Assembly: GCA_016929415.1 (NCBI GenBank)
Contig: JAFGIW010000099.1
Span: 953 to 64,952 of the forward strand
Origin: Chitinispirillaceae bacterium
GTDB lineage: Bacteria > Fibrobacterota > Chitinivibrionia > Chitinivibrionales > Chitinispirillaceae
Direction: 5' to 3'
DNA length: 64,000 nucleotides
Of the stretch, positions 7,851 to 56,421 are shown piece after piece. Positions within the stretch are counted from its first letter, which is position 1, and each line of letters begins with the position of its first letter. The position numbers and the translations under genes were made by a program. Under the pieces are notes generated by a model, which ran no database searches, was not told the origin of the DNA, and was given only the letters and a program-made list of their open reading frames with translations.

Positions 7851-8099
7851 CGCGCACTTGTCAATAGTTGGATAGCTTCTCACCACCGCCTTCGCCCCTC
7901 TCCGTTGTTGTACCCGGTGTCGGCAATCCTCGTCGCTCCGGAGGTAGAAGCAGCCGGACCATCGCATGACGGGTATTCCCGATAGAACAATGTGCACCCC
8001 GCAGTCGACTGCCGGAGGCACCCGCATGATGCTTGTTGCCGCGATCGCCTGATAAATCGCCGCAACCCGGCCTGCTTTCAACCACCATTCCCTGATCGA

Positions 8100-36115: not shown

Positions 36116-36194
36116 AATGCGGCACGACGGTATGAATGACAATGTAAAGTCAAAGACGCGATACGGTTCGGCGATGGCAGGGGAGGCTTTTCTC

Positions 36195-37190: not shown

Positions 37191-37229
37191 AGGCTTCCGG
37201 CGGTTGCCCCTTGTAATCATGGAGGTTGT

Positions 37230-39599: not shown

Positions 39600-40478
39600 A
39601 TGAAAGAATGCACTGCGCAATTCGACTCGGTCGTGACGGAGAATGAATCGCTCAGGGGGATGGTGCACCACCTGAAGGAAACGCAGGGACAGTTGCTGCG
39701 AAGCGAGAAACTGGCCTCGATCGGAAGGCTCTCGGCCGGCATCGCCCATGAAATCAACAACCCTGTCGGATTCGTTTCCAGCAACAGCACGACGCTTCTC
39801 GGCTATATCAGCCGCATCAAGGAAATCCTGAAAATGTACCGGACGGGAATCAGGAAAGAAATTATTGAAAAAAGGGAAAAACAACTGAAAATCGAATTTA
39901 TCCTCGACGATATCGACAAGCTGATCATGGAGAACATCGAGGGACTCGCCCGGATCACCACCATCGTCAACAATCTCAAGAAATTTGCACATGACAGTCA
40001 ATCCGGGGAGTTCATCAATGCGGACATCAACGAGGGTATCCGCAGCGTGCTTGTACTCGTTAAGAACGAATCGAAGTACTATGCGGATATCATCACCGAT
40101 TTCGGGGATATCGGCCAGATACCCTGCACGATCAGCGAACTCAACCAGACGTTTCTCAACATCATCATGAATGCCATTCAGGCCATCAAAGAGCAGGAAA
40201 GGAAGGAAAAGGGGCTGATCACCATAAAAACATGGAAAGATGATGCATGGGCATACGTTGCCGTTACCGACGACGGCCCCGGCATTCCCGGGGAGATCCG
40301 CAAAAAAATCTTCAGTCCGTTTTTCACCACGAAACCTGAGGGTACCGGAACCGGTCTGGGTCTGAACATCTGCTACGAAATTGTCGTCGACAAACACGGC
40401 GGCGATATTCAGATTGACAGCCGTCCCGGCGCCGGGACGACCTTTACCGTCAAGTTGCCGCGTACCAGGGGCGAATAA
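39600..40478 (+). CDS. Cytoplasmic histidine kinase without recognisable input domain
   Basis: H-box [15 protein letters not shown]-box [10 protein letters not shown]1 DDGPGIP, G2 GTGTGLGL. Only ~40 aa of coiled coil precede the H-box, and there is no TM segment. Confidence 0.85.
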
Positions 40479-40479
40479 A

Positions 40480-41676
40480 ATGGCTGAAGCGATACTTTTT
40501 GTCGATGACGACCGGATGGTGCTCAATGCGCTTGAGCGCACCTTTTTCGAAACCGATTACCGTACGTTCTTTGCGCTCAATGCACATGATGCGTTCACGC
40601 TGCTCGAATCCGAAAAAACAGACATGGTCGTTTCGGATATCCGTATGTGGCCGGTATCGGGCTACGATTTTCTCAAGGAAGTGCGTGCGCGCTATCCGGC
40701 AATCATACGTCTGGTGCTCAGCGCCTATGGCGACCGGCAGATGATGACAAAAGTTATCTGCGAAGGAATCGCCAAGATTTTCATTCTCAAACCCTGGGAC
40801 AACCGGACATTCACCGGCCAGATCGACCACCTTTTCACCATGTACCGCTCGCTGGCGGATCTGCAGTCAAGCGGCATCATCTCCGCGGAAAAACAGCTGC
40901 CCGTACTTCCCGAACTCTATATCCGCATGGTGCGCATGATCGAGGAGGAACGAAGTCTGAAAGAGATTGCCGCCCTTATCGAAACCGATCCGTCCTGTAC
41001 GGTGAATGTTCTTAAACTTGTCAACTCGGCGTTCTACGGCCTGACCGTGGGCTCCGTGCACCAGGCGCTGGTCTATCTCGGCGTAGACTGCATAAAGGAT
41101 ATCGTGCTGGTTTCCGAACTCTTCAAGGCTGCGGCCGGATTGCCGCCCGAAGATGCGCGTGTACAGCTCAACCGGCATATGGTCGTCTCCAGCACGCTTC
41201 TGCACGGCCTTCATCAGCGCCTTCTCGCCGAACGCATTCCCGAAGAGTATTCGGCGACCGGACTGCTCGCCGATATCGGGAGGCTTATTCTGCTCGACCA
41301 GCGGCCGGAGATATACCGATCCATTATCGAACGGTATGTCAAGGAGCCGGCGCGCTCGCTTACCGAACTGGAGATGAACGCCGTCGGTTACTCGCACGCA
41401 CAGCTCGGCGCGCTCCTGCTCGATTGGTGGAACCTGCCGGCGTATCTGGTCGAGGCGTGCCTTTATCATCACGTGATTTCCTTCGCGGGGCGCACCCTGC
41501 CCCGGGAGATTATTGCCCTTATTCATATCGCCGACTGTTACGCATGGCGGATAGCGGAGGGTGTCGGTACCATGGCCATCGACAAGGAGGCCGTCGGCAG
41601 GTTCCCGATTACGGAAAAAGAACTCGACGACCACGTCGCATCGATTATAAACCGCGCCGATTCACCCAACCGATAA
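40480..41676 (+). CDS. Response regulator: REC + HDOD domain
   Basis: REC: AILFVDDDRMVLNAL..DMVVSDIRMWPVSGYDFL..LVLSAY..IFILKPWD. HDOD: LPVLPELYIRMVRMIEEERSLKEIAALIETDPSCTVNVLKLVNSAFYGL. The ATG at 40480 is 2 nt after the kinase stop; the track start at 40381 lies inside the kinase gene. Confidence 0.8.
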   Translation: MAEAILFVDDDRMVLNALERTFFETDYRTFFALNAHDAFTLLESEKTDMVVSDIRMWPVSGYDFLKEVRARYPAIIRLVLSAYGDRQMMTKVICEGIAKIFILKPWDNRTFTGQIDHLFTMYRSLADLQSSGIISAEKQLPVLPELYIRMVRMIEEERSLKEIAALIETDPSCTVNVLKLVNSAFYGLTVGSVHQALVYLGVDCIKDIVLVSELFKAAAGLPPEDARVQLNRHMVVSSTLLHGLHQRLLAERIPEEYSATGLLADIGRLILLDQRPEIYRSIIERYVKEPARSLTELEMNAVGYSHAQLGALLLDWWNLPAYLVEACLYHHVISFAGRTLPREIIALIHIADCYAWRIAEGVGTMAIDKEAVGRFPITEKELDDHVASIINRADSPNR

Positions 41677-41757
41677 TTGATGCGCGCAGCGGCCGTGGGT
41701 TAATTAACCGACAGTAAAAAACGTTGAAAATAATACGCAGCGGCAGGGAGGGTCCGG

Positions 41758-42669
41758 ATGGAGGAAAAAATATTATTCGTCGACGACGAGCAGAACGTGC
41801 TGACGGCAATAAAGCGGATGCTCTTCGATGAACCCTACGAACAGCTTTACGCATCGAGCGGCGAAGAAGCGCTTGCACTGATCGCCAGGCATCCCGTCGG
41901 TGTGATCATTTCGGATATGCGTATGCCGGTCATGGACGGCGTTTCCCTTCTGGAAAAATCATGCGAAATCCTCCCCGATGCCGTCCGTATAATCCTGTCC
42001 GGCCAATCCGACATGTTCTCGGTAATGCAGGCAATCAACCGCGGCGGCATCTGGCGCTTCATCAGCAAGCCCTGGAACGATGACGACATGAAATGCACCA
42101 TCCGTAACGCCCTCGACCTCTACGCAGTACGCCGGGAACGGCTGCGCCTGCTCGAAGAACTCGCGCAGAAGAACAGACAGCTCGAATCGGTCAACAGTGA
42201 ACTTGAACGCCGCGTGCTGCAGCGTACCGCCCTTATCGAGGCCCAGAAACGGCTTCTGCATCAGATGATCGACGGGATGGACCTGCCGTCGTTCGCTCTC
42301 GCTTCGTGCAAGGTGATCGCCGAATTGACGGAATCACGCCAGGTCGCCATGCTGCACGCCGTCGGTGAACAGACGCATGTCCATGCACACGAACCGCCGT
42401 CGGATGCACAGCGTACCCTCCTGATCCGGGTTCTCTCGGACGGCAGGGAAACGAATGAGAACGGCTATGTCGCCGTTCCGGTCATCCACAGCGCCGCGGT
42501 GCTTGGTGCACTCGGCGTCGGGAGCACTTCCGCCGTCTCCGCCGAACGGGTCAATGAAACATTAACCAGCATCCTGCCGGTTGTCGCACTTGCGCTCGGT
42601 CAATTTAAAATGATCATGGAGGCGCCGAATCTGATGCGTACGCTGGACGATATTATCGATAAATTGTGA
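41758..42669 (+). CDS. Response regulator: REC + coiled coil + small C-terminal (GAF-like?) domain
   Basis: KILFVDDEQNVL..GVIISDMRMPVMDG..IILSGQ..WRFISKPW is a KPW-type receiver, followed by the coiled coil LEELAQKNRQLESVNSELERRVLQRT. The C-terminal ~130 aa are unassigned. Confidence 0.75.
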   Translation: MEEKILFVDDEQNVLTAIKRMLFDEPYEQLYASSGEEALALIARHPVGVIISDMRMPVMDGVSLLEKSCEILPDAVRIILSGQSDMFSVMQAINRGGIWRFISKPWNDDDMKCTIRNALDLYAVRRERLRLLEELAQKNRQLESVNSELERRVLQRTALIEAQKRLLHQMIDGMDLPSFALASCKVIAELTESRQVAMLHAVGEQTHVHAHEPPSDAQRTLLIRVLSDGRETNENGYVAVPVIHSAAVLGALGVGSTSAVSAERVNETLTSILPVVALALGQFKMIMEAPNLMRTLDDIIDKL

Positions 42670-42684
42670 GGAACAAGTCTCTCT

Positions 42685-44688
42685 ATGGAACCATCGATCA
42701 CTGTGCAGGTATTCGACCATGAAATGAAGGCCGCCGTCAAAGAACTTCCTCCCGGCTGTTCGATCGAGGCGGTGCGCCGTGCCCTCGCGCAGGAAAAAAT
42801 CACCTGCGGAATCCGTTGGGAGGCAATCAAGGACGCCATCGCCGGAGCCGATAAAAGCGGCCTCGTACTTACCAATGTCACCGTCGCTGTTGCCGAACAG
42901 ACGGCGCTGTCGGTCATGTACGGAAAAACGGGGCCGTGTTTTTCGGGTGAAGAGGTCGAACGGCAACGACACAACCTCACTGCCATCGGAAAAGCCATCC
43001 GCAATGGTGATGCCTCCGTTGCGCTTGCCGGCGGTGTATTCGTCAAAGCGGATGAAAATGCATTGACCGTCCGCATCGGCGGCCGGCGACGGAATGTTTA
43101 TGGCGAGGAAATCACCGTGTCCTTCAGCGAGGAGCCGTTTCCGCACGAACGGTGCCTGACGCAGAAATTACTTCCCGACGGGTATGACTTCATCGCAAAG
43201 GCCGCCGGATATCTGGTGATCAACGAGTCGGGCGCCTTCGATATCATCGACCCCTTCTTCACCTCCGCCGACCGTTTGACGCTTTTCTGCCTGATACTCC
43301 CGCTCATTTACGGCAAGGAATCGTTCATCGAAAAGGTCGCGCGCACCGTCTCCGAGGCGCCGCCCGACGGCGCTTTCCTCAAAGCAATCATGGCTGAAAA
43401 CCGTCTGCAGAGACTCGAACTGCGCAGGGGTCGTCCTCCCGTTGCCGGACGTCCCGGATCGGTTGTCTTTTTAATCGCGCCGAACCCCGAATTGCCGGTG
43501 CAGACCCTTGACCGGATAGATTACCGCGATATCGGCCGGTTCCGTGAAGTCAACGAAGGCACGGTAATTGCCGAACAGGTTCCCATGATCCAGTCCGTCC
43601 CGGGAGTCGACGTCTTCGGCGAACCGATCAATATTGACAAAATGGAAGAAATCAATTTTACCTGCGGTGAGGGGATCGTCAAACAGTGCACGCCCGACCT
43701 GATACGGTACATCGCCCGGGAACGGGGCGTTCTGGAGCTCGACGACCACTACGTGAACGTGGCGCCGCAACTCACCATAAGCGGCGATGTCTGCAGCGAA
43801 ACCGGAAATATCGCCTACAGCCGCACGGTGGTCGTCAACGGCACGGTCTGCGCCGGTTTCCGTGTCGTCTGCGGGAATCTTACGGTGCGGGAAAGCATCG
43901 AAGACGGTGCGGAGATAGTCTGCAGCGGTCAATTGGTGGTGGGGAAAGGCATTTTCGGGGAGAGGACCAGGGTGACCGTTGCGGGTGACGCGAACATCGG
44001 GTTTATTCAGGGCGCCTCCCTGCGTGTTCAGGGCAATTGTACCATCGAAGAATACGCATACCATGCCCGGATCTTCTGCGGGGGAGTATTGCGCGTCAAT
44101 GGAAAGGGGCTGACGGGCAGGGAGAAAGGCTGCGTGATCGGCGGTGACCTAAGCAGCATGAAAACGCTTGACCTGCACTCCGCCGGTTCGACGGCGACGC
44201 TCACCACCCTGAGCTGCGGCTTCGATCCGGAAGGCTTCGAGACGTACAAGGAAACCGTCAACCTTGAAAAAACGCTCAAGAAAAAGGTCATTCAGTTGCA
44301 GAAACGGATTCATCTGAATCCGAATGAAAAACCGCTTTTACTTCAGCGGATTCAGAATGCGGGCGCCGAGCAGAAGGAGGCATTCAAGCAGACGCTTCAG
44401 GAATTGCGCGCCACCATCGCCCTTGCCGAAAAAGCCGGTGCGTCGGTTGCGCTCCTCGCCCGTAAAACAGTAGCCGTCGATATCACCCGGTCCAGAATCC
44501 TGATACGCAATCAGTTGATACCGCCGACGTTGATCGTATTTGTAAATATAAAGAAGAAAATCTACCGGGAATCCTTCGGCGTCCGGTTCGCCATGGGCGC
44601 CGATGAAATCATCATGCATGAAGGGCTTACCGCAATCAGCGACGATTGCGGCAATGCCACCGTACCCGAAGCGTCGGGACGGTCATGA
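42685..44688 (+). CDS. FapA / DUF342 family protein
   Basis: 667 aa. The central repetitive beta-helix-like stretch VVNGTVCAGFRVVCGNLTVRESIEDGAEIVCSGQLVVGKGIFGERTRVTVAGDANIGFIQGASLRVQGNCTI, followed by a coiled coil, matches my recollection of DUF342. Needs HMM confirmation. Confidence 0.6.
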   Translation: MEPSITVQVFDHEMKAAVKELPPGCSIEAVRRALAQEKITCGIRWEAIKDAIAGADKSGLVLTNVTVAVAEQTALSVMYGKTGPCFSGEEVERQRHNLTAIGKAIRNGDASVALAGGVFVKADENALTVRIGGRRRNVYGEEITVSFSEEPFPHERCLTQKLLPDGYDFIAKAAGYLVINESGAFDIIDPFFTSADRLTLFCLILPLIYGKESFIEKVARTVSEAPPDGAFLKAIMAENRLQRLELRRGRPPVAGRPGSVVFLIAPNPELPVQTLDRIDYRDIGRFREVNEGTVIAEQVPMIQSVPGVDVFGEPINIDKMEEINFTCGEGIVKQCTPDLIRYIARERGVLELDDHYVNVAPQLTISGDVCSETGNIAYSRTVVVNGTVCAGFRVVCGNLTVRESIEDGAEIVCSGQLVVGKGIFGERTRVTVAGDANIGFIQGASLRVQGNCTIEEYAYHARIFCGGVLRVNGKGLTGREKGCVIGGDLSSMKTLDLHSAGSTATLTTLSCGFDPEGFETYKETVNLEKTLKKKVIQLQKRIHLNPNEKPLLLQRIQNAGAEQKEAFKQTLQELRATIALAEKAGASVALLARKTVAVDITRSRILIRNQLIPPTLIVFVNIKKKIYRESFGVRFAMGADEIIMHEGLTAISDDCGNATVPEASGRS

Positions 44689-44764
44689 TGAACCGCTCCA
44701 CGGCGGCGTATTGCAGGTGTGCCTTCGCGCTGATGTGCTTTTCCGCCGGAAGGGGGGTACGGCA

Positions 44765-45271
44765 GTGATCACCGATGCATCTTCCAGCTATCTTAAGGCA
44801 TTTACACTGGTGTTCGCACAGAAAATGTGTCAGGCGCTCCTCGACATGTGCGGAGCGCATTTTTTAATCAATAAAGAATCGCTTCGGGAAGGAACCTTCT
44901 CGACACCCTATCGTATTACCCTGTTTGCCGGTTTTTCCGGCGCCATTCAGGGCAATTATATCGTATCGCTCGACGATACGGTTGCGTTGAAACTCATCGG
45001 TGCCGGCGATGAAACCGTATCACCCGGAAAGGCGCTTGATTTTCGTAAAGAATACGGCGGTTTTCTCAAGGAAGCGCTCAATATTGCCGTCGGTCAGGCA
45101 ATCGAAGCGCCGGGGAAAAGCTACGGCGACCTTGCCTATTCACCGGGTACGGCCGTATTCGGCGAAATTGAATTTCCTGATATCATGAGCGCAAGCATTG
45201 TGATCGAAGGCAGGGAGGGAAAGATACTGTGCGGTTTTTTCCTCAATCTGGCGAACCTTAAAACTTCATAA
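44765..45271 (+). CDS. CheX-like (CheC/CheX/FliY superfamily) putative CheY-P phosphatase
   Basis: ITLFAGFSGAIQGNYIVSLDD, and FLKEALNIAVGQA carrying the ExxNxxxG signature. Preferred start is GTG 44765, preceded by GGAAGGGGGG. The track start at 44603 lies inside the FapA gene. Confidence 0.55.
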   Translation: MITDASSSYLKAFTLVFAQKMCQALLDMCGAHFLINKESLREGTFSTPYRITLFAGFSGAIQGNYIVSLDDTVALKLIGAGDETVSPGKALDFRKEYGGFLKEALNIAVGQAIEAPGKSYGDLAYSPGTAVFGEIEFPDIMSASIVIEGREGKILCGFFLNLANLKTS

Positions 45272-45349: not shown

Positions 45350-47737
45350 ATGAAACGGTTCGTCAGTATACGAACAAAACTCATCTTCAACACCATGCTG
45401 CTGATTACGGCGGCATTCTCGATACTTCTTTCGGTCATCATTGTTTCAAACATCATTACCGTCCGTAAAAACAGCGAAAAATCAAAAACAAATATCCGCA
45501 CTTCTCTTTTGGCAAAAGGCAGAACACTCGCCCAAAACAACAGCATTGCGATGAGGGGAATGGCCGAAGATAATGCTTTCACCGCCATTCGCGATCTCGT
45601 TTCATCGACCGTTGCCGACGATGAGGACGTGGCGTATGGAATCTATATGGACCGGCAGATTATACCGTGGGTATATGCCACCCCGGATAACCCGAAAGGA
45701 ATTCCCCGGTCGAACAACCCCTTGGACGACTCGATTTCCCGATGGGCGGGATCGCTCGAACGACCCGCATTTATAGAGTATGCCGGCGGAAGGACCGCCA
45801 TTATCGAATTTGCAGCTCCGGTTTTTATCGATGATAAAATTCTCGGTCATATCCGTTACGGCATAAGTACCAATTCGATGGAACGATCGATTCGCGAAGT
45901 ACAGGCGGACGGGCGTGCGACACTCAAGCTGCTCATCCTGATCATCCTCTCGACAGGGCTTTTTTCCCTGATCGTGGGTTATGCGGTTGTCAGGCAGCTG
46001 TCGGCGCGGATCACCAGCCCCATCGGTTCCCTGGTAAGCTCGACGAAATCGATTGCCGAAGGCAACTATGACTTGGCCGTCAAACAGGAGAGCAATGATG
46101 AAATAGGCGACCTCGCCGGCCGCTTCGAGACGATGCGCCTAACCATCAAACAGTATACCGATCACCTGCAGGACCTCATCGATGAAAAGATGCGGCAGGT
46201 CAACGACATTCTCAACAATATCGAGCAAGGGCTCTTTACCATCAATCTCGACGGCTCCGTCAACAAAGAATACAGTGCACGCGCCAACTTGATCCTCAAG
46301 GTAAAGGATGTCGCCGCATGTTCCATCAGGGAGCTGTTGCGGTTCGATATGAAACAGGGGGCGGCCTTCCTTCTCTGGCTCGATCTCGTCCGGAAGTTGC
46401 ATAAACAGCAACGGTGGATCAAACTCGCGAAACTGGCACCGGTTCAGCAGATAGAACTGTTTGCCGCACCCGATACATTGGAGAAGAAGTATATCGCCGT
46501 TTCATACCAGCCCATCTGCGACAAGAAGGGCGACCTCGTAAAAGTCATGGTGCTTGCACTGGACGAAACCGAAAAACGGATGAAAGACCAGCAGATGGCC
46601 GCCGAGCGAATGCAACATGAGAGCGAGGTCAAGGCCATACTCAACATCGCCAATACGCCCGCCGAGGAGATCGCCGAATTTACCGAAGATACCTCAAGCC
46701 GCCTCCACGGACTTCGGGCCGAAATCGCGGGCCATCTTTACTGCGTGCGGCGACAGCGCGACAGTCATCCCGCCACACCCCTCTATAGCATCACCAAGGA
46801 GCACGTCGACCGGCTCTTTCGCGATCTGCACACCATCAAAGGCAACAGCGGATCGTACGGATTTGAAATGCTGTCATATTTCGCCCACGAGGCTGAGGAT
46901 CTGCTCGAAAAACTCCGGGAACCGATTCAGGAGCGCCGTGACAACATACTTCACGATATCAACGGACTGCTGGACAGCATGGACCAGTCGCTCGATGATA
47001 TCCACCGGAAGATCAAACTCATTTTCGGCAAGGATGAAGAGATCACGGTGCGCATCCCGGATGCACGAATCAACAACATCGTCGAACTGTGTAAACGCAT
47101 CGAATCGAAGGCGGATGATCCGGAGGTGAGGTCCCTTATCACCGAATGCATTATGCTTTCATGGAAACCGCTCAAGACACTTTTCAGAAAATACCAGAAA
47201 CTCGCCCATAAAACGGCGCGCAAGGTTAACAAGAACATAAATTTCATCATCAATAACGAGACAATGAGTTACCCGAACGACATTCTCGCGGGTCTGGACG
47301 ATGTGCTCATCCATCTGATCCGCAACGCGGTCGATCACGGCATCGAAGAGCCTGGCGTACGTGAAGAGGTGGGAAAAAGCGTCGGGCGGATACAGGTCTC
47401 CCTTGAATGCGGGGACGGAAACCGTATCATCTCCGTCGCCGACGACGGATGCGGTATCGATACCGACCGGGTGGTTGAACGTTGTATCGAAAAAAACATC
47501 ATTACCCGTGAGCAGGCAGGGCGACTTACCCGGGAAGAAAAAATAGGTCTTCTCTTCAAGGGGGGTATTTCAACCGCCGCAACAGTAACCGATATTTCGG
47601 GAAGAGGAATGGGGATGCAGATCATCCATAACAAGGTCGTTGAGCTGAAGGGGACCCTCTCCATCGATTCGCAACTCGGTAAAGGTACGACTTGTACCAT
47701 TTCGGTTCCTGTCGACAAAGAGAAACCACTTTTATGA
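45350..47737 (+). CDS. Sensor-fused CheA-like kinase: TM - periplasmic Cache-like domain - TM - HAMP - PAS-like - HPt(P1) - P3 - P4(HATPase); no P5/CheW domain
   Basis: TM1 LIFNTMLLITAAFSILLSVIIV; TM2 LKLLILIILSTGLFSLIVGYAVV; HAMP ITSPIGSLVSSTKSIAEGNYDLAV..NDEIGDLAGRFETM; HPt DLHTIKGNSGSYGFEML. The CheA-type P4 is LIHLIRNAVDHGIEEP..VADDGCGID..VTDISGRGMGMQII..GKGTTCTISVP. The protein ends 10 aa after the P4 motif. Confidence 0.75.
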   Translation: MKRFVSIRTKLIFNTMLLITAAFSILLSVIIVSNIITVRKNSEKSKTNIRTSLLAKGRTLAQNNSIAMRGMAEDNAFTAIRDLVSSTVADDEDVAYGIYMDRQIIPWVYATPDNPKGIPRSNNPLDDSISRWAGSLERPAFIEYAGGRTAIIEFAAPVFIDDKILGHIRYGISTNSMERSIREVQADGRATLKLLILIILSTGLFSLIVGYAVVRQLSARITSPIGSLVSSTKSIAEGNYDLAVKQESNDEIGDLAGRFETMRLTIKQYTDHLQDLIDEKMRQVNDILNNIEQGLFTINLDGSVNKEYSARANLILKVKDVAACSIRELLRFDMKQGAAFLLWLDLVRKLHKQQRWIKLAKLAPVQQIELFAAPDTLEKKYIAVSYQPICDKKGDLVKVMVLALDETEKRMKDQQMAAERMQHESEVKAILNIANTPAEEIAEFTEDTSSRLHGLRAEIAGHLYCVRRQRDSHPATPLYSITKEHVDRLFRDLHTIKGNSGSYGFEMLSYFAHEAEDLLEKLREPIQERRDNILHDINGLLDSMDQSLDDIHRKIKLIFGKDEEITVRIPDARINNIVELCKRIESKADDPEVRSLITECIMLSWKPLKTLFRKYQKLAHKTARKVNKNINFIINNETMSYPNDILAGLDDVLIHLIRNAVDHGIEEPGVREEVGKSVGRIQVSLECGDGNRIISVADDGCGIDTDRVVERCIEKNIITREQAGRLTREEKIGLLFKGGISTAATVTDISGRGMGMQIIHNKVVELKGTLSIDSQLGKGTTCTISVPVDKEKPLL

Positions 47738-47790: not shown

Positions 47791-48171
47791 ATGGGAAGAA
47801 CCGTCGTGATTGTCGATGATTCAAAATTCCTCAGCAAGCAGGTTGTTGAATTTTTTGAAGAGCAACTAGGGTTTACCGTGTGCGCGACCGGTTACGACGG
47901 CAATGAAGCGATTGCCTTGTATCGCAGGCATCAGCCTGATCTTATCACGCTCGACATCACCATGCCGAATAAAACGGGCGCCGAGGCAATGAAGGAGATT
48001 CTTCGAGAATTTCCCGATGCAAACATTCTGATGATCTCGGCGGTACGGGGAGAGGCGATGCTTGAATGCATGAACCGCGGAGCGAAGGGATATATTGAGA
48101 AACCTCTAAAATTCAACGATTCCGCCTTTATCGACGATTTCAAGGAGACGATCCGCGAGATTTTCGGATGA
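47791..48171 (+). CDS. Single-domain CheY-like response regulator
   Basis: MGRTVVIVDDSKFL..PDLITLDITMPNKTG..ILMISAVRG..GAKGYIEKPL. AAAGGAG RBS upstream of ATG 47791. Confidence 0.85.
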   Translation: MGRTVVIVDDSKFLSKQVVEFFEEQLGFTVCATGYDGNEAIALYRRHQPDLITLDITMPNKTGAEAMKEILREFPDANILMISAVRGEAMLECMNRGAKGYIEKPLKFNDSAFIDDFKETIREIFG

Positions 48172-48188: not shown

Positions 48189-48590
48189 TTACTTCGGCGG
48201 TTCGCGGACGCCGACCGCTTCATTGACCGTTTCAATAAAATCGGCCACGAAATCACCATTGGAAAGCCGGAGCGGCTTTTCAATATATCCTTTGGCACCC
48301 ATCGACAGGCATTGCAGTATGGCGTCGCCGCGTATCGCGGAAATGATGAGCACATTGGCATCCGGGAACTCGTCCAGCAGCTCCTTGAGTACATCCTGGC
48401 CGTTTTTGTTCGGCATTGATAGATCGAGCGTGAGCAGGTCGGGCTTGAATTTACGGTAAAGGTTGAGCGCATCGGTTCCGTCCAGAGCCGTTGCAATGAT
48501 CTTGAAATGGAGCCGGTCGATGAAAAAACGCTCAAGCAGGCCGATGATGTATTTCGAATCGTCGATAATGATAACACTTTTTTCACTCAT
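48189..48590 (-). CDS. Single-domain CheY-like response regulator (paralog of 47791..48171)
   Basis: SVIIIDDSKYI..PDLLTLDLSMPNKNG..VLIISAIRG..GAKGYIEKPL. Confidence 0.85.
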   Translation of the reverse strand: MSEKSVIIIDDSKYIIGLLERFFIDRLHFKIIATALDGTDALNLYRKFKPDLLTLDLSMPNKNGQDVLKELLDEFPDANVLIISAIRGDAILQCLSMGAKGYIEKPLRLSNGDFVADFIETVNEAVGVREPPK

Positions 48591-48629: not shown

Positions 48630-49136
48630 TTATTGCTTTTCAGGAAATTCCTGGAGGTTTTTACGAATGGTGTAGCCGATATAGATCCAGTGCTTCTCGA
48701 CATAGATGTAGCCCTGTATTCCCCAGATGAACGGCAAATAGGACTGGCCGTCGGTGTACAGCACCGGCACCGCCTGGGTCAGTATGCCGAACTCATCCGT
48801 GAATTCCCTTTTATCGGCGATCATCCCCGAATAGGTATTGACGAATTCACCGAGAATGTCCGCCGCCTCTTCGGAACTGATGTCGTCCCTGCCGGTGAAC
48901 GCCGCGAGCGACTCGTGCTGAATGCCGGCGTACATCAATGCGCTGTGCTGCATGTTCGAGCTTCCGATGGTCAGGATCAGATCGAATTTGCTCTGCAACT
49001 GCTCCACCACCTCCCACGGCATGTGCAACGTGCTCTTTTTCGAAAAAAAGACATCAACGCATTCGATGGCCGTTCTGGAGAAGGTATCGGATAACTTGAT
49101 CAGCGTAGTTCGATAGTACTCGGTTCCGTTCATCAA
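48630..49136 (-). CDS. CheX-like domain protein (divergent)
   Basis: 168 aa. ADILGEFVNTYSGMI carries ExxNxxxG, and DLILTIGSSNMQHSALMYAG resembles the CheX beta-strand region. Immediately upstream of a CheY gene. Confidence 0.45.
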   Translation of the reverse strand: MMNGTEYYRTTLIKLSDTFSRTAIECVDVFFSKKSTLHMPWEVVEQLQSKFDLILTIGSSNMQHSALMYAGIQHESLAAFTGRDDISSEEAADILGEFVNTYSGMIADKREFTDEFGILTQAVPVLYTDGQSYLPFIWGIQGYIYVEKHWIYIGYTIRKNLQEFPEKQ

Positions 49137-49315: not shown

Positions 49316-51889
49316 TTAAAAACTTTTAGTAAACGTAATGCCAAACGTCCGCTGGTCTGTGGAGTAAAGGTCGCGGTTCCCGTAATCGTACATCTGCTCG
49401 GCCCGTAATGTATTGACTGTGTTGCGGTCGGCCTCTATATTCGTAAAATCGTGACGGTCGGTGCCGAGGATGTTGTAAATGTAAAATGATGCCTCAATGT
49501 TTGCCGGTAAAAAGAAACTAAGGCTGGCGTTCCACTTTTTCGACACTTGTGTCATGAAGTAGTCCTTAAAATTCGCTGCATCTTTTTCGTCGTAATAGCC
49601 AAAATAATTACCGGTATCGGCAATGTTATTTGAATTGACACCATTCTCGGTGCTCTGGATTACGGGGCCTCTTCCCGGAAGTCCCCAGATCAGCCGCAGG
49701 TTGGCGTTGATTGAAACCCAGTCGAACGGGGTGATCATAAGGAACAGTTTCGTCATGTTGGTCGGTAGGTTCAGGAAGCTCAACCCGTCATAGGTAACTG
49801 CTCTTTTGACAAGGTTAACCTCATAGTTTAAAGTTTTTTCGGCGATGGGTGACCACATGGTGTCGCCGTTGGAATTAATGCTGCCTACGGTGCCGTAAAT
49901 GGTGTCACCGTTAACGACGGAGTCTTTTTTGAGCTGGTAAAGCTTGAAGGTTATATTTTGTTCGTCAATATTGGTTCTCACCGGTCGTTGGAAGGTATGG
50001 TTGATTCCGGCCTTAAAGTATTTATTCGTATAATTAACGGCAAGATCTGCATTGGCAAACTGATACTGCCCGCAATTGACCACTCTAAAGAGTGTCTGAT
50101 CCCATACATGGAGGTTGCTGACGAGGTTCCACGATAGGGACGGCTCAATAGTGAGTCCTTCGAGTAGCTTTCCTACATAAGTACCTTCTACTGAATGGAC
50201 CCGTTCAGGTTTGAGGCTGTGCATTTCACTTAATTCGGCAGGCTGGACCAGAGAGGAGGTGTCGGTCGGTCTGTCGATCCACGAAACAAATGTTGGCTTG
50301 GTTAAGATGTCTCCCTGGTCGTTGACATGTTTCCGGTTGTATTCATAATTGTCGGCGGAACCGTTGTTCGCGGCCGACTGGTAGATAAGTTTGATCGAAT
50401 GGTTCTCGTTGGGACGATACACGGCCGCCAGTTTCGGGCTGGCAAACGTCGCGCGGGTATGGATGTCGAGGCGTACTCCAGCTTGAGCGCTAATATACTC
50501 GTTGATGTCATAGAAGCCTTCTCCGAAAAGTGAAAAGGTATTATAGTTGATTTTAGAAACGATATAGTGCTTGGCGACCCATAACTGTTCATCCTTGCCG
50601 TTCATACTGTAGCCAATTTCGTCGATGCGGTCCTCGATGCCGAACGCCGCCTGCAGGTTGGTTATTGACTTAAGAAGGAATGTGGCGTTCGCCAGATACC
50701 GTTTTTCGCCGAATGTTTCGATCACACGGCCGTTTGGGTATTGGCGATCGGTATAGTAATGTTCGAGCTGTTCTTCAAGGATACTGGTGGTATTGAGATC
50801 GTAGCTGAGCTTTGTCTTGAGTTCGTTGTCGCCGAGGGGGAAGTTATAGCTTGCTTCCGACATGAAGTTGTCGGATAAATAGAGTTTCATCGAATTTCTC
50901 CAGTTGTTTCTCCCCCCCCAGAACGGATCGGTTGGCGAAACATACCTATTGCCATCGATTTCACGACTTCGCCAGTACTTTGCGGAGTCAACCGGAAGTG
51001 TTGGAAAAACCAGTTCCGCCCATGGCGCTAGGCAAAAGTAGCTAGCGGTAGTCTCCTTCTGCCGCGTACCACGCATGTAGAAATTGAATCTGTTGGCCGT
51101 GACATCGGCGGCAAGTTTCCAGTTGCCGTCGGTGGAGCCATAGCGGCCGTCGGAGGGAACGCCAAGGCTGTTGGGGGTGGTACCGGCACGGGAGTATACT
51201 CGTGTCGCACTCAAAGGGAAACCATCGCTTTGTTTGTAACCGCCCGTAGCGGCAAATGAAATTCCTTCAACCGGATTACCGTACAGATTGCCCTCAATTG
51301 ACTTCGAACCGTCACCACCTGCCGTAACGGTTGCCGTACTCTTGTTGCCTTCACCCTTACGGGTGACGACATTGATGATGCCGGCGATCGCACCGCTGCC
51401 GTAGACGAGGCCTGCGGGACCGCGCAGCACCTCGACACGTTCAATATCGCCAAGAAGTCCGAGTACTGTTTCACCCTGAAACCCGTCACGCGCCTGGGTG
51501 TTCATTTTATGGCCATTGACGCAATAGATGACTTTCGTGTTGCGGTCGTTGGCCACTCCGCGCATGGCCCAGACGGTGCCGTAATATTTGTTCATATTGT
51601 AAATAAATCCCGGCACATAGATCTCGAGCAGCTCCGACATGTGCCGCGCCCCCGACGCCCGCACCATCTCCCTGGTGATGATCGTCATGCTCAGCGGCGA
51701 CTTCATTAGATCGAGTTCCAGAAACGATCCGGTGGTGATCTCCATGGTGAGCAGATCGCCGAGCGAGAGCTCGTCAAGCAGGGCCGGTTCAGCTTCCACC
51801 GACTCATCCGCCGCCAATACGACGTTGTGCCACGGCAGGCCTGAGGACAACACGGTTAACAATGCAGTGACGAAAATAGTACGAACCAT
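49316..51889 (-). CDS. TonB-dependent outer-membrane receptor (copy 3, distinct subfamily, 857 aa)
   Basis: Signal peptide; plug motifs LSMTIITREMVRASGARHMSELLEIYVPG and IERVEVLRGPAGLVYGSGAIAGIINVVT; C-terminal ..GITFTKSF. Confidence 0.85.
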   Translation of the reverse strand: MVRTIFVTALLTVLSSGLPWHNVVLAADESVEAEPALLDELSLGDLLTMEITTGSFLELDLMKSPLSMTIITREMVRASGARHMSELLEIYVPGFIYNMNKYYGTVWAMRGVANDRNTKVIYCVNGHKMNTQARDGFQGETVLGLLGDIERVEVLRGPAGLVYGSGAIAGIINVVTRKGEGNKSTATVTAGGDGSKSIEGNLYGNPVEGISFAATGGYKQSDGFPLSATRVYSRAGTTPNSLGVPSDGRYGSTDGNWKLAADVTANRFNFYMRGTRQKETTASYFCLAPWAELVFPTLPVDSAKYWRSREIDGNRYVSPTDPFWGGRNNWRNSMKLYLSDNFMSEASYNFPLGDNELKTKLSYDLNTTSILEEQLEHYYTDRQYPNGRVIETFGEKRYLANATFLLKSITNLQAAFGIEDRIDEIGYSMNGKDEQLWVAKHYIVSKINYNTFSLFGEGFYDINEYISAQAGVRLDIHTRATFASPKLAAVYRPNENHSIKLIYQSAANNGSADNYEYNRKHVNDQGDILTKPTFVSWIDRPTDTSSLVQPAELSEMHSLKPERVHSVEGTYVGKLLEGLTIEPSLSWNLVSNLHVWDQTLFRVVNCGQYQFANADLAVNYTNKYFKAGINHTFQRPVRTNIDEQNITFKLYQLKKDSVVNGDTIYGTVGSINSNGDTMWSPIAEKTLNYEVNLVKRAVTYDGLSFLNLPTNMTKLFLMITPFDWVSINANLRLIWGLPGRGPVIQSTENGVNSNNIADTGNYFGYYDEKDAANFKDYFMTQVSKKWNASLSFFLPANIEASFYIYNILGTDRHDFTNIEADRNTVNTLRAEQMYDYGNRDLYSTDQRTFGITFTKSF

Positions 51890-51987
51890 GATTCGCGCTC
51901 CTTTGTTGAAGGGGTATAAGGTATCGTTATCGTCTATTGCCCAACCGGTTTTCCGGCTGTATTCGTAGCATGAACGATATTATCCGA

Positions 51988-52983
51988 TTATTTCAATTTT
52001 TTGTCAATGCTCTTGAGTTTCTCGTCGGAAACAGTAAATCTCTTTTTCGCCTGCAAGAGGTTGATTATTTTGTAGACCGCAAGCGGCGGGTCGACGCGAT
52101 GTTCTTCACACACCCAGTTGTTGTCCTTTATTTCATAGACCATTCCCGCAGCCTGGCTTCCCAGCGCGACATGGTCGGGGAGCACGGCGAAAGTACCGAA
52201 ATTCAGTTTCGGATTTACCAGCACTTCAACGCCGACAATCACCGGCACCTTATATTTCTGGGTTGCGGGCATCCAAACCCTCCTGATGATGTTCGCTTGC
52301 AGGAGTGCGTTGTCGTTGGGCACCCAGAGTGCATCGATCCCGCGGCTATCGAGTCCCTTGAGGGCGTTCTTGATCAGCGGTCCGTATGCATTGCTTTTAT
52401 CCGGTAAAGCCTTATTGACGATTTCGATTCCTTCGCGTTTACAGAATTGACTGTTTTTTTCCACAAAATCCATTAAAAACTCCCGGTGAACGACGCCGAC
52501 CTTTTTTATCGGTATCCCCAGGACGGAACGCAGGCTGACGACGCTGGTGACGATGGGCACCTCATAGGAGATTCCGCAGGCGTTTTTCAAATCGGCGATG
52601 GCCTCTTTGATCATTACTCCCATGATCGCGATCGAAGGAATCATCGTTGCCGTTTCAGGGAGTGTCGATTGATACTTTCTGAACAGAGCGATCGCAGCGT
52701 TATCCATAAGGACCACAAGCTTCGGTTGATGCGAATGGATCAATTCGGTAAACTCATTGACAGAGCATTTCTTGTCGATGATACGCTCCCTCACTTCAAA
52801 GTCACCGCGCAGTTCATCCTTTAAACCGCGGAACGCATCTTCGAAATCCTTCCCCTCCTGTCGGAAGGTCAAAATGACCTCGGCGGCGACAGCCGTACCA
52901 ATGTTCATGAAGATCATGAATAAAGCAATTACTTGGACTTTAATCGTTCCCGGTTGACGTCCCGTACGTTTGATTACTTCCAT
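51988..52983 (-). CDS. Periplasmic substrate-binding protein, PF04392-like (paralog of 36195..37190)
   Basis: VGVVHREFLMDF..DALWVPNDNALL..VIVGVEVLV..NFGTFAVLPDHVALGSQAAGMV parallels the other copy. The hydrophobic N-terminus is IKVQVIALFMIFMNIGTAVAA. Start taken at ATG 52983. Confidence 0.6.
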   Translation of the reverse strand: MEVIKRTGRQPGTIKVQVIALFMIFMNIGTAVAAEVILTFRQEGKDFEDAFRGLKDELRGDFEVRERIIDKKCSVNEFTELIHSHQPKLVVLMDNAAIALFRKYQSTLPETATMIPSIAIMGVMIKEAIADLKNACGISYEVPIVTSVVSLRSVLGIPIKKVGVVHREFLMDFVEKNSQFCKREGIEIVNKALPDKSNAYGPLIKNALKGLDSRGIDALWVPNDNALLQANIIRRVWMPATQKYKVPVIVGVEVLVNPKLNFGTFAVLPDHVALGSQAAGMVYEIKDNNWVCEEHRVDPPLAVYKIINLLQAKKRFTVSDEKLKSIDKKLK

Positions 52984-53669
52984 TGGTCCACCTCGAACAG
53001 CGCACAAAGTTTCTTGTCGGCTTTTTTAAGCGCGCCGACCGTTTTATCGGCATTTCCGTTGTTTTTCACGCCAAGTGCGATAATGCCTGTTGTAGCCCCG
53101 GAAAGGGGTTTAACGGTGAATTCCAGGTTTGACGTTGACCTGAAATAGTTGACAAACACATCTTCAACAAGAATAGCGTCGGCCATATTGAAGGTCAGCA
53201 GCGGCAACAGGTCTTCTATTTTGGTAACCCGCTTGAGTTTCGGCTCCGCGGGGAAAAAATGACCGATAAACGACTTCATTCCGGTCCTGCCCAGTACGTC
53301 GATCGCCCCTATCGTTGTCTGGGCGTTGACGGCTTTCGGATCGATCGGGGCGTTGATCGACATGATCACGTATGTTGCCCCGGTCTTTCCTTTCCTCACG
53401 CCGTTAAGTACAATGGTATAGTTGCCCATCTGCTCGATAAGCGCGGGTTTGCTCAGTACCGCGTCGGGAGGTTCAGCCGCGACCTTTTCACTCATATCGA
53501 TGCAACGGCCGAAGACGGTCACCGAAACGCCGTTGAAATGTTCCTGCATTTTCTCCTGAACCGTCTGTGGCCGTGCGGTGGTGGGATAAAAAACATAGAG
53601 CTTTTCCTGTGCGAACGTACTGCTTGCTGCAAAGATAAACCCCATGAATGCCGTTATTACGTATTTCAT
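52974..53669 (-). CDS. Secreted/periplasmic protein of unknown family (possibly a type-2 binding-protein fold)
   Basis: Signal peptide MKYVITAFMGFIFAASSTFAQE, followed by alternating beta/alpha-like sequence (LYVFYPTTARPQTVQEKMQEHFNGVSVTVFG..PDAVL). No motif I can name. Confidence 0.4.
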   Translation of the reverse strand: MKYVITAFMGFIFAASSTFAQEKLYVFYPTTARPQTVQEKMQEHFNGVSVTVFGRCIDMSEKVAAEPPDAVLSKPALIEQMGNYTIVLNGVRKGKTGATYVIMSINAPIDPKAVNAQTTIGAIDVLGRTGMKSFIGHFFPAEPKLKRVTKIEDLLPLLTFNMADAILVEDVFVNYFRSTSNLEFTVKPLSGATTGIIALGVKNNGNADKTVGALKKADKKLCALFEVDQWK

Positions 53670-55888: not shown

Positions 55889-56421
55889 CGTTGCTGCCGC
55901 GCTTGTTCCGTTTTTTTCCCAATCTGCAGGCCGACCAGATTCAGGCACAGGCTGCATACTACCATGCCGCATTTTCCACTGATGAAACCGATACCCGAGA
56001 TATAGTCGGCGGAATGATACTCGCCGTAGATCCATGCCGGCGGCAGGAGCGTTAAAGCGCCGAAATTTCTCTCCAAATCTTCCAGTGAATGATGTGCACT
56101 GATGTTCATGGCTTCGCACATAAGACCGGAATAGGTGCCCCGATGGACAATAACGGCCGCGAGCGCAGCGCCATGAGGATAGACGGCGGCAATTTTCGAC
56201 GCGGTAATCTCATCGGTCGAAAAAATGAAATCGCCCTGAATCCGGCCGCTGAAATGGGATATGACCGTCAGGCCGTTCCGGAATGTCGGAGGGGTATTCA
56301 CCGGGCTCTTTTTGTCAATCATAAAATCGGCGTTTGCCATATCCTTTAATGTATGGCAAACGTTACGAATGAAGAGCGCCGTATTGGTTCGCAGAATCGT
56401 GTCCTGTTGTTCTTTCGTCAT
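55885..56421 (-). CDS. CheX-like domain protein (paralog of 44765..45271)
   Basis: LTVISHFSGRIQGDFIFSTDE and LMCEAMNISAHH (ExxN retained, Gly replaced by His). Ends ..CSLCLNL, like its paralog's ..CGFFLNL. Confidence 0.5.
   Translation of the reverse strand: MTKEQQDTILRTNTALFIRNVCHTLKDMANADFMIDKKSPVNTPPTFRNGLTVISHFSGRIQGDFIFSTDEITASKIAAVYPHGAALAAVIVHRGTYSGLMCEAMNISAHHSLEDLERNFGALTLLPPAWIYGEYHSADYISGIGFISGKCGMVVCSLCLNLVGLQIGKKTEQARQQR

What the first reader, a model, noticed from the sequence alone, without database searches (positions are those of the whole stretch)
45350..47737. CheA-like kinase carrying its own transmembrane sensor (Cache-like + HAMP + PAS-like) and lacking the CheW-binding P5 domain
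Seen directly in the sequence:
- Two TM helices bracket ~170 periplasmic residues.
- A canonical HAMP follows (..NDEIGDLAGRFETM..), then a PAS-sized region.
- An HPt follows with the CheA P1 signature HTIKGNSG.
- A P3-like segment (TVRIPDARINNIVELCKRI) comes next.
- The CheA-type ATP-binding P4 reads HLIRNAVDHGIE..DDGCGID..GRGMGMQ..GKGTTCTISVP.
- The ORF stops 10 residues later, so no P5 domain is present. I also see no classical DHp H-box.

Canonical CheA is soluble and receives input only through MCP/CheW arrays via P5. Here the receptor function appears to be fused in cis, which would make the protein a one-piece chemosensory kinase.
Basis: partly seen in the sequence, partly recalled or inferred. 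Interest (0 to 1): 0.7.

Follow-up and report, generated by a model that had tools for sequence, protein, structure and literature searches.

The report
Sensor-fused CheA-type kinase without P5
This is a real, conserved membrane sensor kinase built from the catalytic core of the chemotaxis kinase CheA with its own sensor attached and no receptor-coupling domain; it fits a little-studied class described in 2017 (class III histidine kinases), so it is an interesting member rather than a new invention.

Summary
ORF 45350-47737 (+, 795 aa) reads TM1, periplasmic PDC/sCache-like domain, TM2, HAMP, PAS-like domain, Hpt/P1 (His494), shortened P3 hairpin, CheA-type P4, then stop. There is no P5/CheW domain and no HisKA/DHp.

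It is not a truncation. More than 100 homologues of about 790 aa share this architecture, in Fibrobacterota, Desulfobacterales and Beggiatoaceae. A CheY gene starts 53 bp after the stop.

The P4 domain matches Thermotoga CheA (E 6e-36) far better than classical kinases (E about 1e-4). It groups with other P5-less kinases that carry different sensors (dCache, periplasmic-binding, CheX-like).

Conserved partners are a single-domain CheY and CheX-fold proteins. Some orthologous loci also encode an MCP-like protein directly downstream.

These features match my recollection of class III histidine kinases (HKIII; Adebali et al. 2017, paper not readable here).

Most likely mechanism: periplasmic ligand, then HAMP/PAS, then control of P1 phosphorylation by P4, then CheY~P, reset by CheX. 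This would work without chemoreceptor arrays. The output is unknown.

Verdict: new member of a known kind, interest about 0.35.

The parts
45350..47737 (+). Whole gene: sensor-fused, P5-less CheA-type (HKIII-like) histidine kinase, 795 aa
   Evidence: ORF and translation. Pfam finds HAMP, Hpt and HATPase_c only. 191 homologues of the same length and domain set. AF2 mean pLDDT 83.
45377..45454 (+). TM1 (residues ~10-35)
   Evidence: Kyte-Doolittle 19-residue windows above 1.6. Helix 7-73 in the AF2 model.
45455..45916 (+). Periplasmic PDC/sCache-like sensor domain (residues ~36-189)
   Evidence: AF2 shows a long N-terminal helix plus a five-stranded sheet. Weak Pfam sCache_3_2 hit, E 0.007. NCBIfam WalK-like N-terminal half, E 1e-18. 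Top Foldseek hit is a WalK model. Many invariant residues: N63, N64, D127, E153, G166, Y170.
45917..45994 (+). TM2 (residues ~190-215)
   Evidence: Hydropathy. Continuous helix 175-236.
46001..46150 (+). HAMP domain (residues 218-267), followed by an S-helix to ~290
   Evidence: Pfam PF00672, E 4e-10. Helix 251-290.
46223..46564 (+). Cytoplasmic PAS-like domain (residues 292-405), conserved across the P5-less lineage
   Evidence: AF2 topology is 2 strands, 4 helices, 3 strands. Invariant W343, W356, K358, P364, Y386. Alignable in the dCache, Peripla_BP, CheX-fused and Myxococcota versions. No Pfam PAS hit.
46568..46654 (+). Linker helix (residues 407-435) carrying family-invariant His423 (RHENEVK)
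   Evidence: AF2 helix 407-435. H423 is present in 48/48 family members but is absent in Myxococcota and some soluble relatives.
46661..47026 (+). P1/Hpt four-helix bundle (residues 438-559); phospho-acceptor His494 at nt 46829-46831
   Evidence: Pfam Hpt, E 1.7e-9. CheA P1 chains in the PDB, E 2e-4. hhalign aligns it to CheA P1. H494, K497 and E516 are invariant; H513 is present in 43/48.
47060..47161 (+). Truncated P3-like helical hairpin (residues 571-604)
   Evidence: hhalign against 60 canonical CheAs aligns both helix bases of P3, with a gap in the query at the hairpin tip. Foldseek aligns 249 columns to the T. maritima P3P4 structure 4xiv. Helices 571-585 and 591-604. Pfam H-kinase_dim is not detected.
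47162..47713 (+). P4, CheA-type ATP-binding kinase domain (residues 605-788)
   Evidence: phmmer to T. maritima CheA P4, E 6e-36. Foldseek TM 0.85-0.89. NCBIfam CheA models are the top hits. N, G1 and G2 boxes are invariant.
47791..48171 (+). Single-domain CheY-like response regulator, likely cognate phospho-acceptor
   Evidence: Pfam Response_reg, E 2.7e-22. Best NCBIfam hits are CheY and the CheB receiver. An orthologue lies within 6 kb of the kinase in 27 of 29 loci that have full flanks.
48189..48590 (-). Second single-domain CheY-like response regulator (convergent)
   Evidence: Pfam Response_reg, E 1e-19. NCBIfam CheB-receiver and CheY hits. Orthologue found in L001.
48630..49136 (-). 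CheX-fold protein (putative CheY~P phosphatase), unannotated family
   Evidence: No Pfam or NCBIfam hit. AF2 pLDDT 83.6. The top 22 Foldseek PDB hits are all CheX, CheC or FliM. Invariant D92, E96, N99 and P123 give D-x3-E-x2-N...P. hhalign to the other CheX-like family gives 84% probability. Present near the kinase in 22/29 loci.
44603..45271 (+). CheX-like domain protein directly upstream (domain ~44780-45268; true start probably downstream of 44603)
   Evidence: Weak Pfam CheX hit, E 0.002. The family profile hits T. maritima CheX 1XKO at E 7e-7. Invariant E..N motif. A domain homologue lies near the kinase in 17/29 loci.

Best explanation
The gene encodes a dimeric inner-membrane sensor kinase. 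In it, the P1-P3-P4 phosphorylation core of CheA has lost P2, the tip of P3 and all of P5. That core is fused behind a WalK-like input module: TM, periplasmic PDC/sCache domain, TM, HAMP, PAS-like domain.

Shown here: the domain order, the CheA affinity of P1, P3' and P4, intact catalytic and phospho-acceptor residues, the absence of P5, DHp, CheW and MCP, and conserved linkage to a single-domain CheY and to CheX-fold proteins.

Inferred mechanism:
1. A periplasmic ligand changes the TM2/HAMP/S-helix conformation.
2. The signal passes through the PAS-like domain and the 407-435 helix directly into P1.
3. P1 is tethered at both ends, with only about 10 disordered residues before P3'. The signal would therefore set how well His494 is presented to the ATP site of P4. 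It would not act through a receptor/CheW/P5 lattice.
4. His494~P is passed to the adjacent CheY (47791-48171), and probably also to the second CheY.
5. The CheX-fold proteins (48630-49136 and 44780-45268) dephosphorylate or read CheY~P.

The system matches class III histidine kinases (HKIII), which are a receptor-array-independent offshoot of the chemosensory kinase. Its cellular output is not determined. Candidates are surface or pilus motility, the flagellar apparatus, or an envelope/TonB-linked process.
For: Architecture.

CheA homology across P1, P3' and P4: NCBIfam CheA models are the top hits. PDB CheA P4 gives E 6e-36. hhalign against 60 canonical CheAs gives probability 100%, E 1e-79, over 341 columns, and the alignment ends exactly where P5 would begin.

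Catalytic and acceptor residues are invariant.

Not a truncation: 191 homologues share the length and domain set, 50 GTDB loci carry relatives, and CheY starts 53 bp after the stop.

Lineage: the best P3'-P4 relatives all end at P4, and canonical CheAs follow at 38-42% identity. In a neighbour-joining tree of 168 P4 domains the target sits in a P5-less group. That group has 44 members, with a median size of 43 over 100 bootstraps. It includes dCache-HAMP, Peripla_BP, Myxococcota and Planctomycetota versions.

Partners: CheY is near the kinase in 27/29 loci, one CheX-fold protein in 22/29 and the other in 17/29. Their CheX identity is supported.

No CheW/P5 or MCPsignal is found anywhere in the 64-kb window, using probes that do detect both in canonical che loci.

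In some orthologous loci an MCPsignal protein of about 430 aa follows the kinase. This fits the 'unorthodox chemoreceptor' of HKIII systems.

HKIII definition: my own recollection of Adebali et al. 2017 (J Bacteriol 199:e00218-17). Its title is confirmed and a second-hand paraphrase.
Against: - No biochemical data exist for this family.
- The HKIII paper could not be read, and no reference HKIII sequence was compared directly. Class membership therefore rests on matching features.
- As I recall it, HKIII is defined as lacking a dimerisation domain, whereas a P3 remnant is detectable here.
- The signal route 'into P1' comes from domain order and a monomer model only. No dimer model, PAE or coordinates were available.
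- The exact 44-member P5-less split has only 12% bootstrap support. The tree uses crude distances and a sample biased toward the target's nearest relatives.
- The output is unknown, and the window contains no pilus or flagellar genes.
- Upstream HK292, RR-HDOD and RR303 could feed His494 by phosphorelay.
Confidence: 0.7

Rival explanations
1. The family is an independent, so far undescribed lineage. It would have lost P5 and gained sensors on its own, or descend from a pre-CheA intermediate. It would then resemble HKIII only by convergence.
For: No published HKIII sequence could be compared, because the paper is not held. A P3 remnant is retained, while HKIII is recalled as lacking a dimerisation domain. 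The main hosts (Fibrobacterota, Beggiatoaceae, Desulfobacterales) are not the opportunistic pathogens that I recall the HKIII abstract emphasising. No Pfam or NCBIfam model exists for the whole protein.
Against: Every recalled defining feature of HKIII systems that could be tested is met: sensor domain, Hpt, CheA-type HATPase_c, no CheW, no Pfam-detectable dimerisation domain, a single-domain RR, CheX, and an MCP-like partner in some loci. The P5-less group spans several phyla and sensor types.
Confidence: 0.15
2. The protein works mainly as a phosphorelay node. His494 would receive phosphate from the upstream classical kinase and receiver proteins (HK 39600-40478, RR 41758-42669), or act as a phosphate sink. 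P4 would be regulatory rather than the primary autokinase.
For: A same-strand cluster of HK292, RR-HDOD, RR303, FapA, a CheX-like protein and the kinase is present. Hpt domains commonly act as relay modules.
Against: All ATP-binding and catalytic motifs of P4 are invariant. The HK292-RR303-FapA trio accompanies the kinase in only 2 related loci, whereas CheY and CheX are near-universal. The P1 catalytic set K497/H513/E516 is typical of CheA autophosphorylation (the E. coli numbering is from memory).
Confidence: 0.07
3. The kinase is still receptor-controlled. An MCP-like protein or another adaptor encoded elsewhere would regulate it, and the N-terminal sensor would be secondary.
For: An MCPsignal protein of about 430 aa lies immediately downstream in L025, L027, L032 and L042, and canonical CheAs lie nearby in some Fibrobacteria loci.
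Against: The 64-kb window has no MCPsignal or CheW/P5. No P5 is available to bind CheW or receptors. The periplasmic domain and HAMP are strongly conserved, which argues that they are the input.
Confidence: 0.06
4. The gene is an artefact: either a canonical CheA truncated by frameshift or misassembly, or an ordinary HisKA-type kinase that has been misread.
For: None found.
Against: 191 homologues and about 50 genomic loci share the same end point and length. CheY follows after 53 bp, and no frame downstream encodes P5. There is no HisKA domain. P4 gives E 6e-36 to CheA against about 1e-4 to classical kinases.
Confidence: 0.02

Closest known systems
Class III histidine kinases (HKIII; Adebali, Petukh, Reznik, Tishkov, Upadhyay, Zhulin 2017, J Bacteriol 199:e00218-17; recalled from memory, paper not readable here)
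   Same: N-terminal sensory domains are fused to Hpt and a CheA-related HATPase_c. There is no CheW domain and no Pfam-detectable dimerisation domain. The operon partners are a single-domain response regulator and CheX, and some loci add an MCP-like protein. The system occurs without che array genes nearby.
   Different: A truncated P3 hairpin is still detectable by profile-profile and structure comparison. The sensor module is specific: TM, sCache, TM, HAMP, PAS-like. The hosts are Fibrobacterota, Desulfobacterales and Beggiatoaceae. TonB-dependent receptors recur nearby, and FapA is adjacent in this window. Two CheX-fold proteins and two CheYs are present. The link to type IV pili proposed for HKIII could not be examined.
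Canonical CheA (class II kinase), e.g. Thermotoga maritima CheA (PDB 1B3Q, 4XIV, 1I58) and E. coli CheA
   Same: P1 has His, Lys, His and Glu with the same spacing. The base of P3 is retained. P4 is 34-42% identical, with the same N, G1 and G2 boxes.
   Different: There is no P5/CheW domain and no P2, and the P3 tip is deleted. The protein is membrane-anchored and carries its own periplasmic sensor, HAMP and PAS-like domain. The CheA survey of 13,673 sequences found CheW in 100% of CheAs and describes CheA as lacking a sensor domain (PMC10782961).
WalK/VicK-type class I sensor kinases (TM, extracytoplasmic PAS/sCache, TM, HAMP, PAS, DHp, CA)
   Same: The N-terminal half has the same order of modules. 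NCBIfam HK_WalK matches residues 4-336 at E 1e-18. The top Foldseek hit is a full-length WalK model.
   Different: The DHp-CA transmitter is replaced by the CheA-type P1-P3'-P4. The phospho-acceptor His sits on a monomeric four-helix Hpt bundle, not on a dimeric DHp helix continuous with the signalling helix.
Split or atypical CheAs of Rhodobacter sphaeroides (CheA3, CheA4; cited in PMC10782961; details from memory)
   Same: They deviate from the five-domain CheA plan, with some domains missing from each polypeptide.
   Different: Those proteins keep P5 and work in chemoreceptor clusters, and they have no fused sensor domains.

Membership tests
Canonical CheA (HKII) | P1 Hpt domain with a phospho-acceptor histidine | tested here: met
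   Pfam Hpt, E 1.7e-9. Aligned to CheA P1. His494 is invariant.
Canonical CheA (HKII) | P3 H-kinase_dim dimerisation domain | tested here: inconclusive
   Pfam PF02895 is not detected, although it is detected in control CheAs. hhalign and Foldseek align a shortened hairpin, 571-604, to the base of P3.
Canonical CheA (HKII) | P4 CheA-type HATPase_c | tested here: met
   E 6e-36 to T. maritima P4. TM 0.85-0.89. Canonical CheAs are the nearest relatives outside the P5-less group.
Canonical CheA (HKII) | P5 CheW-like domain, present in 100% of surveyed CheAs (PMC10782961) | tested here: not met
   No Pfam CheW hit. The ORF ends 8 residues after P4. The P5 probe finds nothing in the window but does find the controls.
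Canonical CheA (HKII) | No sensor domain of its own; input arrives through MCP/CheW | tested here: not met
   Two TM segments, a periplasmic PDC-like domain, HAMP and a PAS-like domain are present. The window has no CheW or MCP.
Class III histidine kinases (HKIII) | Sensory domain(s) N-terminal to the kinase core | tested here: met
   Relatives carry dCache_1, Peripla_BP or CheX-like modules instead.
Class III histidine kinases (HKIII) | Hpt plus a CheA-related HATPase_c, with no CheW domain | tested here: met
Class III histidine kinases (HKIII) | Lack of a recognisable dimerisation domain | tested here: inconclusive
   Neither HisKA nor H-kinase_dim is found by Pfam. A truncated P3 remnant is visible with more sensitive methods.
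Class III histidine kinases (HKIII) | Genomic association with a single-domain response regulator and CheX | tested here: met
   CheY is near the kinase in 27/29 loci and CheX-fold proteins in 22/29 and 17/29. CheX identity.
Class III histidine kinases (HKIII) | Often an unorthodox MCP-like partner | tested here: inconclusive
   Absent from the window. Present immediately downstream in L025, L027, L032 and L042.
Class III histidine kinases (HKIII) | pilT / type IV pilus genes in the same genome | not testable with these tools
   Only a 64-kb window is available. The ORFs scanned contain no pilT.
Class III histidine kinases (HKIII) | Kinase domain clusters with published HKIII members | not tested
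   The paper and its sequence set are not held. No reference HKIII sequence was available.
Class I (HisKA-type) sensor kinases | DHp domain with an H-box, followed by a class I CA domain | tested here: not met
   No HisKA hit, whereas the window's own classical kinases give one. The CA domain is CheA-type. His423 in the linker helix is not universal in relatives.

The most novel reading that the evidence does not exclude
The whole P5-less lineage may share a PAS-like domain, linker helix and P1 unit in which P1 is tethered at both ends. If so, these kinases would be regulated by gating access of the substrate domain (P1) to P4. That would be a control principle different from both DHp-helix rotation in classical kinases and P5/CheW lattice control in CheA.

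The CheX fold may also be reused as a CheY~P-reading input domain. In related loci it is fused to a second Hpt-P4 kinase, to a PP2C phosphatase and to hybrid kinases. That would give a multi-tier, array-free chemosensory cascade, possibly tied to TonB-dependent uptake in Fibrobacterota.
Probability: 0.2. Interest if true: 0.6.

Novelty: new member of a known kind. Interest (0 to 1): 0.35.

Why it matters
CheA is usually taught as the one histidine kinase that cannot sense anything itself. Sensor-fused, P5-less relatives show that its catalytic core can be driven without receptor arrays.

To my knowledge, HKIII systems have had almost no biochemical study. This family offers a clean and well-conserved example:
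- a confidently modelled periplasmic domain, HAMP and PAS input;
- a P3 remnant that documents descent from, or kinship with, CheA;
- compact CheY and CheX partners;
- cultured hosts, since Chitinivibrio alkaliphilus and Chitinispirillum alkaliphilum carry homologues.

Such a system could be used to test how a CheA-type P4 is switched on and off in the absence of P5 and CheW. It could also help identify what these pathways control in non-model phyla. It also shows that two conserved partner proteins, currently annotated 'hypothetical', have the CheX fold.

Tried and rejected
Tool and literature failures:
- The look-up of encoding contigs, both for the window protein and for P0001, returned nothing. 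I therefore built the gene map from ORFs and Pfam/NCBIfam scans.
- I could not retrieve the HKIII paper or any open description of it. I obtained only its citation and a loose paraphrase. The class definition is therefore from memory.
I redid it after a homologue search.
- The promoter/terminator scan of 39-49.5 kb gave promoter counts at chance level and did not settle the operon boundaries.

Hypotheses considered and rejected:
- Truncated CheA: rejected.
- HisKA-type kinase with a hidden H-box: rejected.
- His423 as the real phospho-site: it is invariant in the family but missing in Myxococcota and some soluble relatives, whereas His494 is present in nearly all aligned relatives.
- FapA/DUF342 as a core partner: it is adjacent in only 1 of 29 loci with full flanks, plus L001.

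The literature search for 'transmembrane CheA' and for CheA with DUF342 found nothing relevant.
Full report
**1. Observation**

The ORF 45350-47737 (+) encodes 795 aa. It starts at an ATG preceded by GGGGAG. A GTG 27 nt upstream is possible, but homologues begin MxKFVSI.

Pfam detects HAMP (218-267), Hpt (443-539) and HATPase_c (652-789). It detects no CheW, HisKA or H-kinase_dim. Canonical CheAs fetched later and scanned in the same way do give H-kinase_dim and CheW, so the absence is not a sensitivity problem.

Hydropathy gives two membrane segments, at about 10-35 and 190-215.

An AlphaFold2 model built on 48 homologues has mean pLDDT 83 and shows, in order:
- a long helix plus five-stranded PDC/sCache-like periplasmic domain;
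- TM2 running into HAMP and an S-helix;
- a PAS-like alpha/beta domain (292-405);
- a linker helix (407-435);
- a four-helix Hpt (438-559);
- about 10 disordered residues;
- a short helical hairpin (571-604);
- a CheA-like P4 (608-787).

The stop comes 8 residues after P4. A CheY-like ORF starts 53 bp later, and no downstream frame encodes a CheW-like domain. The periplasmic stretch is about 155 residues rather than 170. HxxKG is a general Hpt motif. The P3-like piece is truncated.

**2. Is the core really CheA-type?**

- The best NCBIfam models are the CheA equivalogs, at 198 and 135 bits, far below their full-length cut-offs.
- Against PDB sequences, P4 matches T. maritima and E. coli CheA at E 1e-29 to 6e-36. 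Classical kinases reach only about 1e-4, and P1 matches CheA P1 at about 2e-4.
- Foldseek aligns P4 to CheA P4 with TM 0.85-0.89, and aligns 249 columns to the P3P4 structure 4xiv.
- A profile-profile comparison of the family's cytoplasmic part with 60 canonical CheAs gives probability 100%, E 1e-79, over 341 columns. P1 aligns to P1. P2 is absent. Both helix bases of P3 align, with a gap in the query where the canonical P3 hairpin tip lies. P4 aligns in full, and the alignment ends exactly where P5 starts.
- His494, Lys497 and Glu516 are invariant in 48 homologues, as are the N, G1 and G2 boxes. His513 is present in 43 of 48. The spacing H, H+3, H+19, H+22 matches E. coli CheA His48/Lys51/His67/Glu70 (E. 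coli numbering from memory).

**3. Not an artefact**

191 proteins share the length (about 790 aa) and the HAMP+Hpt+HATPase_c domain set. An identical copy comes from a Chitinispirillaceae MAG. Others come from Chitinivibrionales, Fibrobacteria, Desulfobacterales and Candidatus Parabeggiatoa/Halobeggiatoa.

**4. The wider lineage**

Searching 1.84 billion representatives with P3'-P4 returns first about 28 proteins that end at P4. It then returns canonical CheAs at 38-42% identity that continue into P5.

Relatives in GTDB genomes keep the PAS-like-Hpt-P3'-P4 core but carry other inputs: dCache_1+HAMP, a periplasmic-binding-protein domain, or an N-terminal CheX-like domain. Versions with unknown N-termini occur in Myxococcota and Planctomycetota. 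None has CheW or H-kinase_dim.

In a neighbour-joining tree of 168 P4 domains the target lies in a purely P5-less group of 44. The group's median size is 43 over 100 bootstraps, but the exact split is recovered in only 12% of them. The method is crude and the sampling is biased.

**5. Context**

Directly upstream lies a CheX-like domain protein. Its family profile hits T. maritima CheX at E 7e-7.

Downstream are two single-domain CheY-like regulators and a 168-aa protein with no database annotation. That protein models confidently as a CheX/CheC fold. It keeps an invariant D-x3-E-x2-N...P motif, which I recall as the CheC/CheX/FliY active-site pattern.

Among 29 related loci with full flanks:

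| Partner near the kinase | Loci |
|---|---|
| CheY orthologue | 27 |
| 168-aa CheX type | 22 |
| Other CheX-like domain | 17 |
| TonB-dependent receptor | 12 |
| FapA | 1 |

The 64-kb window contains no CheW/P5 or MCP signalling domain. The probes used do find both in canonical che loci. In several Fibrobacteria orthologous loci an MCPsignal protein of about 430 aa follows the kinase immediately. No flagellar or pilus genes were seen in the window.

**6. Mechanism**

What is shown is the anatomy above. The inferred mechanism is as follows.
- The protein is a HAMP-mediated dimer.
- Ligand binding in the periplasm is transmitted through TM2, HAMP, S-helix, the PAS-like domain and the 407-435 helix into P1.
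- P1 is attached to P3'-P4 by only about 10 flexible residues.
- The signal therefore most plausibly controls how His494 is presented to P4. This replaces the P5/CheW/receptor control of CheA.
- His494~P then serves the adjacent CheY proteins, and the CheX-fold proteins terminate or read the signal.

The rival explanations (an independent lineage, a phosphorelay node, residual receptor control, an artefact) are weighed in their own section.

**7. Comparison with what is known**

A survey of 13,673 CheAs found the CheW domain in 100% of them. It states that H-kinase_dim always co-occurs with HATPase_c and CheW, and that CheA lacks a sensor domain (PMC10782961). This protein is therefore not a CheA in that sense.

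It does match what I recall of class III histidine kinases (Adebali et al. 2017). As I recall them, they have:
- sensory domains plus Hpt plus a CheA-like kinase domain;
- no dimerisation or CheW domain;
- a single-domain RR and CheX as partners;
- often an unorthodox chemoreceptor;
- occurrence in genomes without che genes;
- a proposed role in type IV pilus motility.

I could not read that paper. Only its citation and a paraphrase were available. Membership is therefore feature-based, with two points left open: the P3 remnant, and the lack of any direct sequence comparison with published HKIII members.

**8. Verdict**

The finding is real and correctly read, but it is not a new kind of system. 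It is a well-conserved, unannotated subfamily of sensor-fused, P5-less CheA-type kinases (HKIII-like) from Fibrobacterota and a few other lineages. Interest is about 0.35. The more novel possibilities are regulation by gating of P1 and use of the CheX fold as a CheY~P reader. Neither is excluded, and neither is shown.

Noticed in passing
L004:5819-7999, L005:3175-5268 and 5887-7980, L028:4860-6977, L013:87-1370, L014:10431-12599, L017:4503-7889 (domain type of window 44780-45268): The CheX-like domain found upstream of the kinase also occurs as an N-terminal module. It is fused to a second P5-less Hpt-HATPase_c kinase, to a SpoIIE/PP2C phosphatase, and to HisKA-HATPase-REC hybrid kinases. This suggests it may act as a CheY~P-reading input domain rather than only as a phosphatase.
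   Followed up: partly
window 48630-49136 (-): A conserved 168-aa protein is annotated 'hypothetical' everywhere and has no Pfam or NCBIfam hit. It has a CheX/CheC fold and an invariant D-x3-E-x2-N...P motif, so it is probably an unrecognised CheX subfamily.
   Followed up: yes
window 46616-46618 (His423, in linker helix 46568-46654): A second histidine (RHENEVK) is invariant in all 48 family members. It is also kept in the dCache, Peripla_BP and CheX-fused relatives, but is absent in Myxococcota and some soluble versions. Its role is unknown.
   Followed up: partly
window 34016-39347 (+) and 49316-53007 (-); L004, L007, L008, L019 downstream of the kinase: TonB-dependent receptors and weakly TrpX-like periplasmic binding proteins flank the signalling genes on both sides. 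The 857-aa receptor has high-scoring orthologues (926-957 bits) a few kb downstream of the kinase-CheX-CheY unit in four other Fibrobacterota loci. This hints at a functional link to outer-membrane uptake.
   Followed up: partly
L025:3382-4680, L027:10399-11697, L032:8170-9525, L042:1864-3126: In the more divergent Fibrobacteria orthologues (about 36-38% identity) an MCPsignal protein of about 430 aa starts right at the kinase stop codon. This happens even though the kinase has no P5 and no CheW gene is adjacent. How the two would couple is unclear.
   Followed up: partly
window 39600-44688 (+); L001, L028: Upstream on the same strand lie a short soluble classical kinase (best NCBIfam model 'T2SS_HK'), an RR-HDOD protein, a 303-aa RR and a FapA/DUF342 protein. 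The kinase-RR-FapA trio recurs only in the two closest loci.
   Followed up: no
window 53771-56119 (-): A 782-aa protein has an HDOD/HD domain and a weak receiver-like N-terminal region. It heads the minus-strand cluster that contains the TonB-dependent receptor. It is the second HDOD protein within 15 kb.
   Followed up: no
P0115, P0118, P0124, P0129, P0131, P0134, P0139 (about 520-540 aa): Soluble versions of the same core exist, with PAS-like, Hpt, P3' and P4 but no TM or HAMP. In P0129 the acceptor His is replaced (YTIKS).
   Followed up: no
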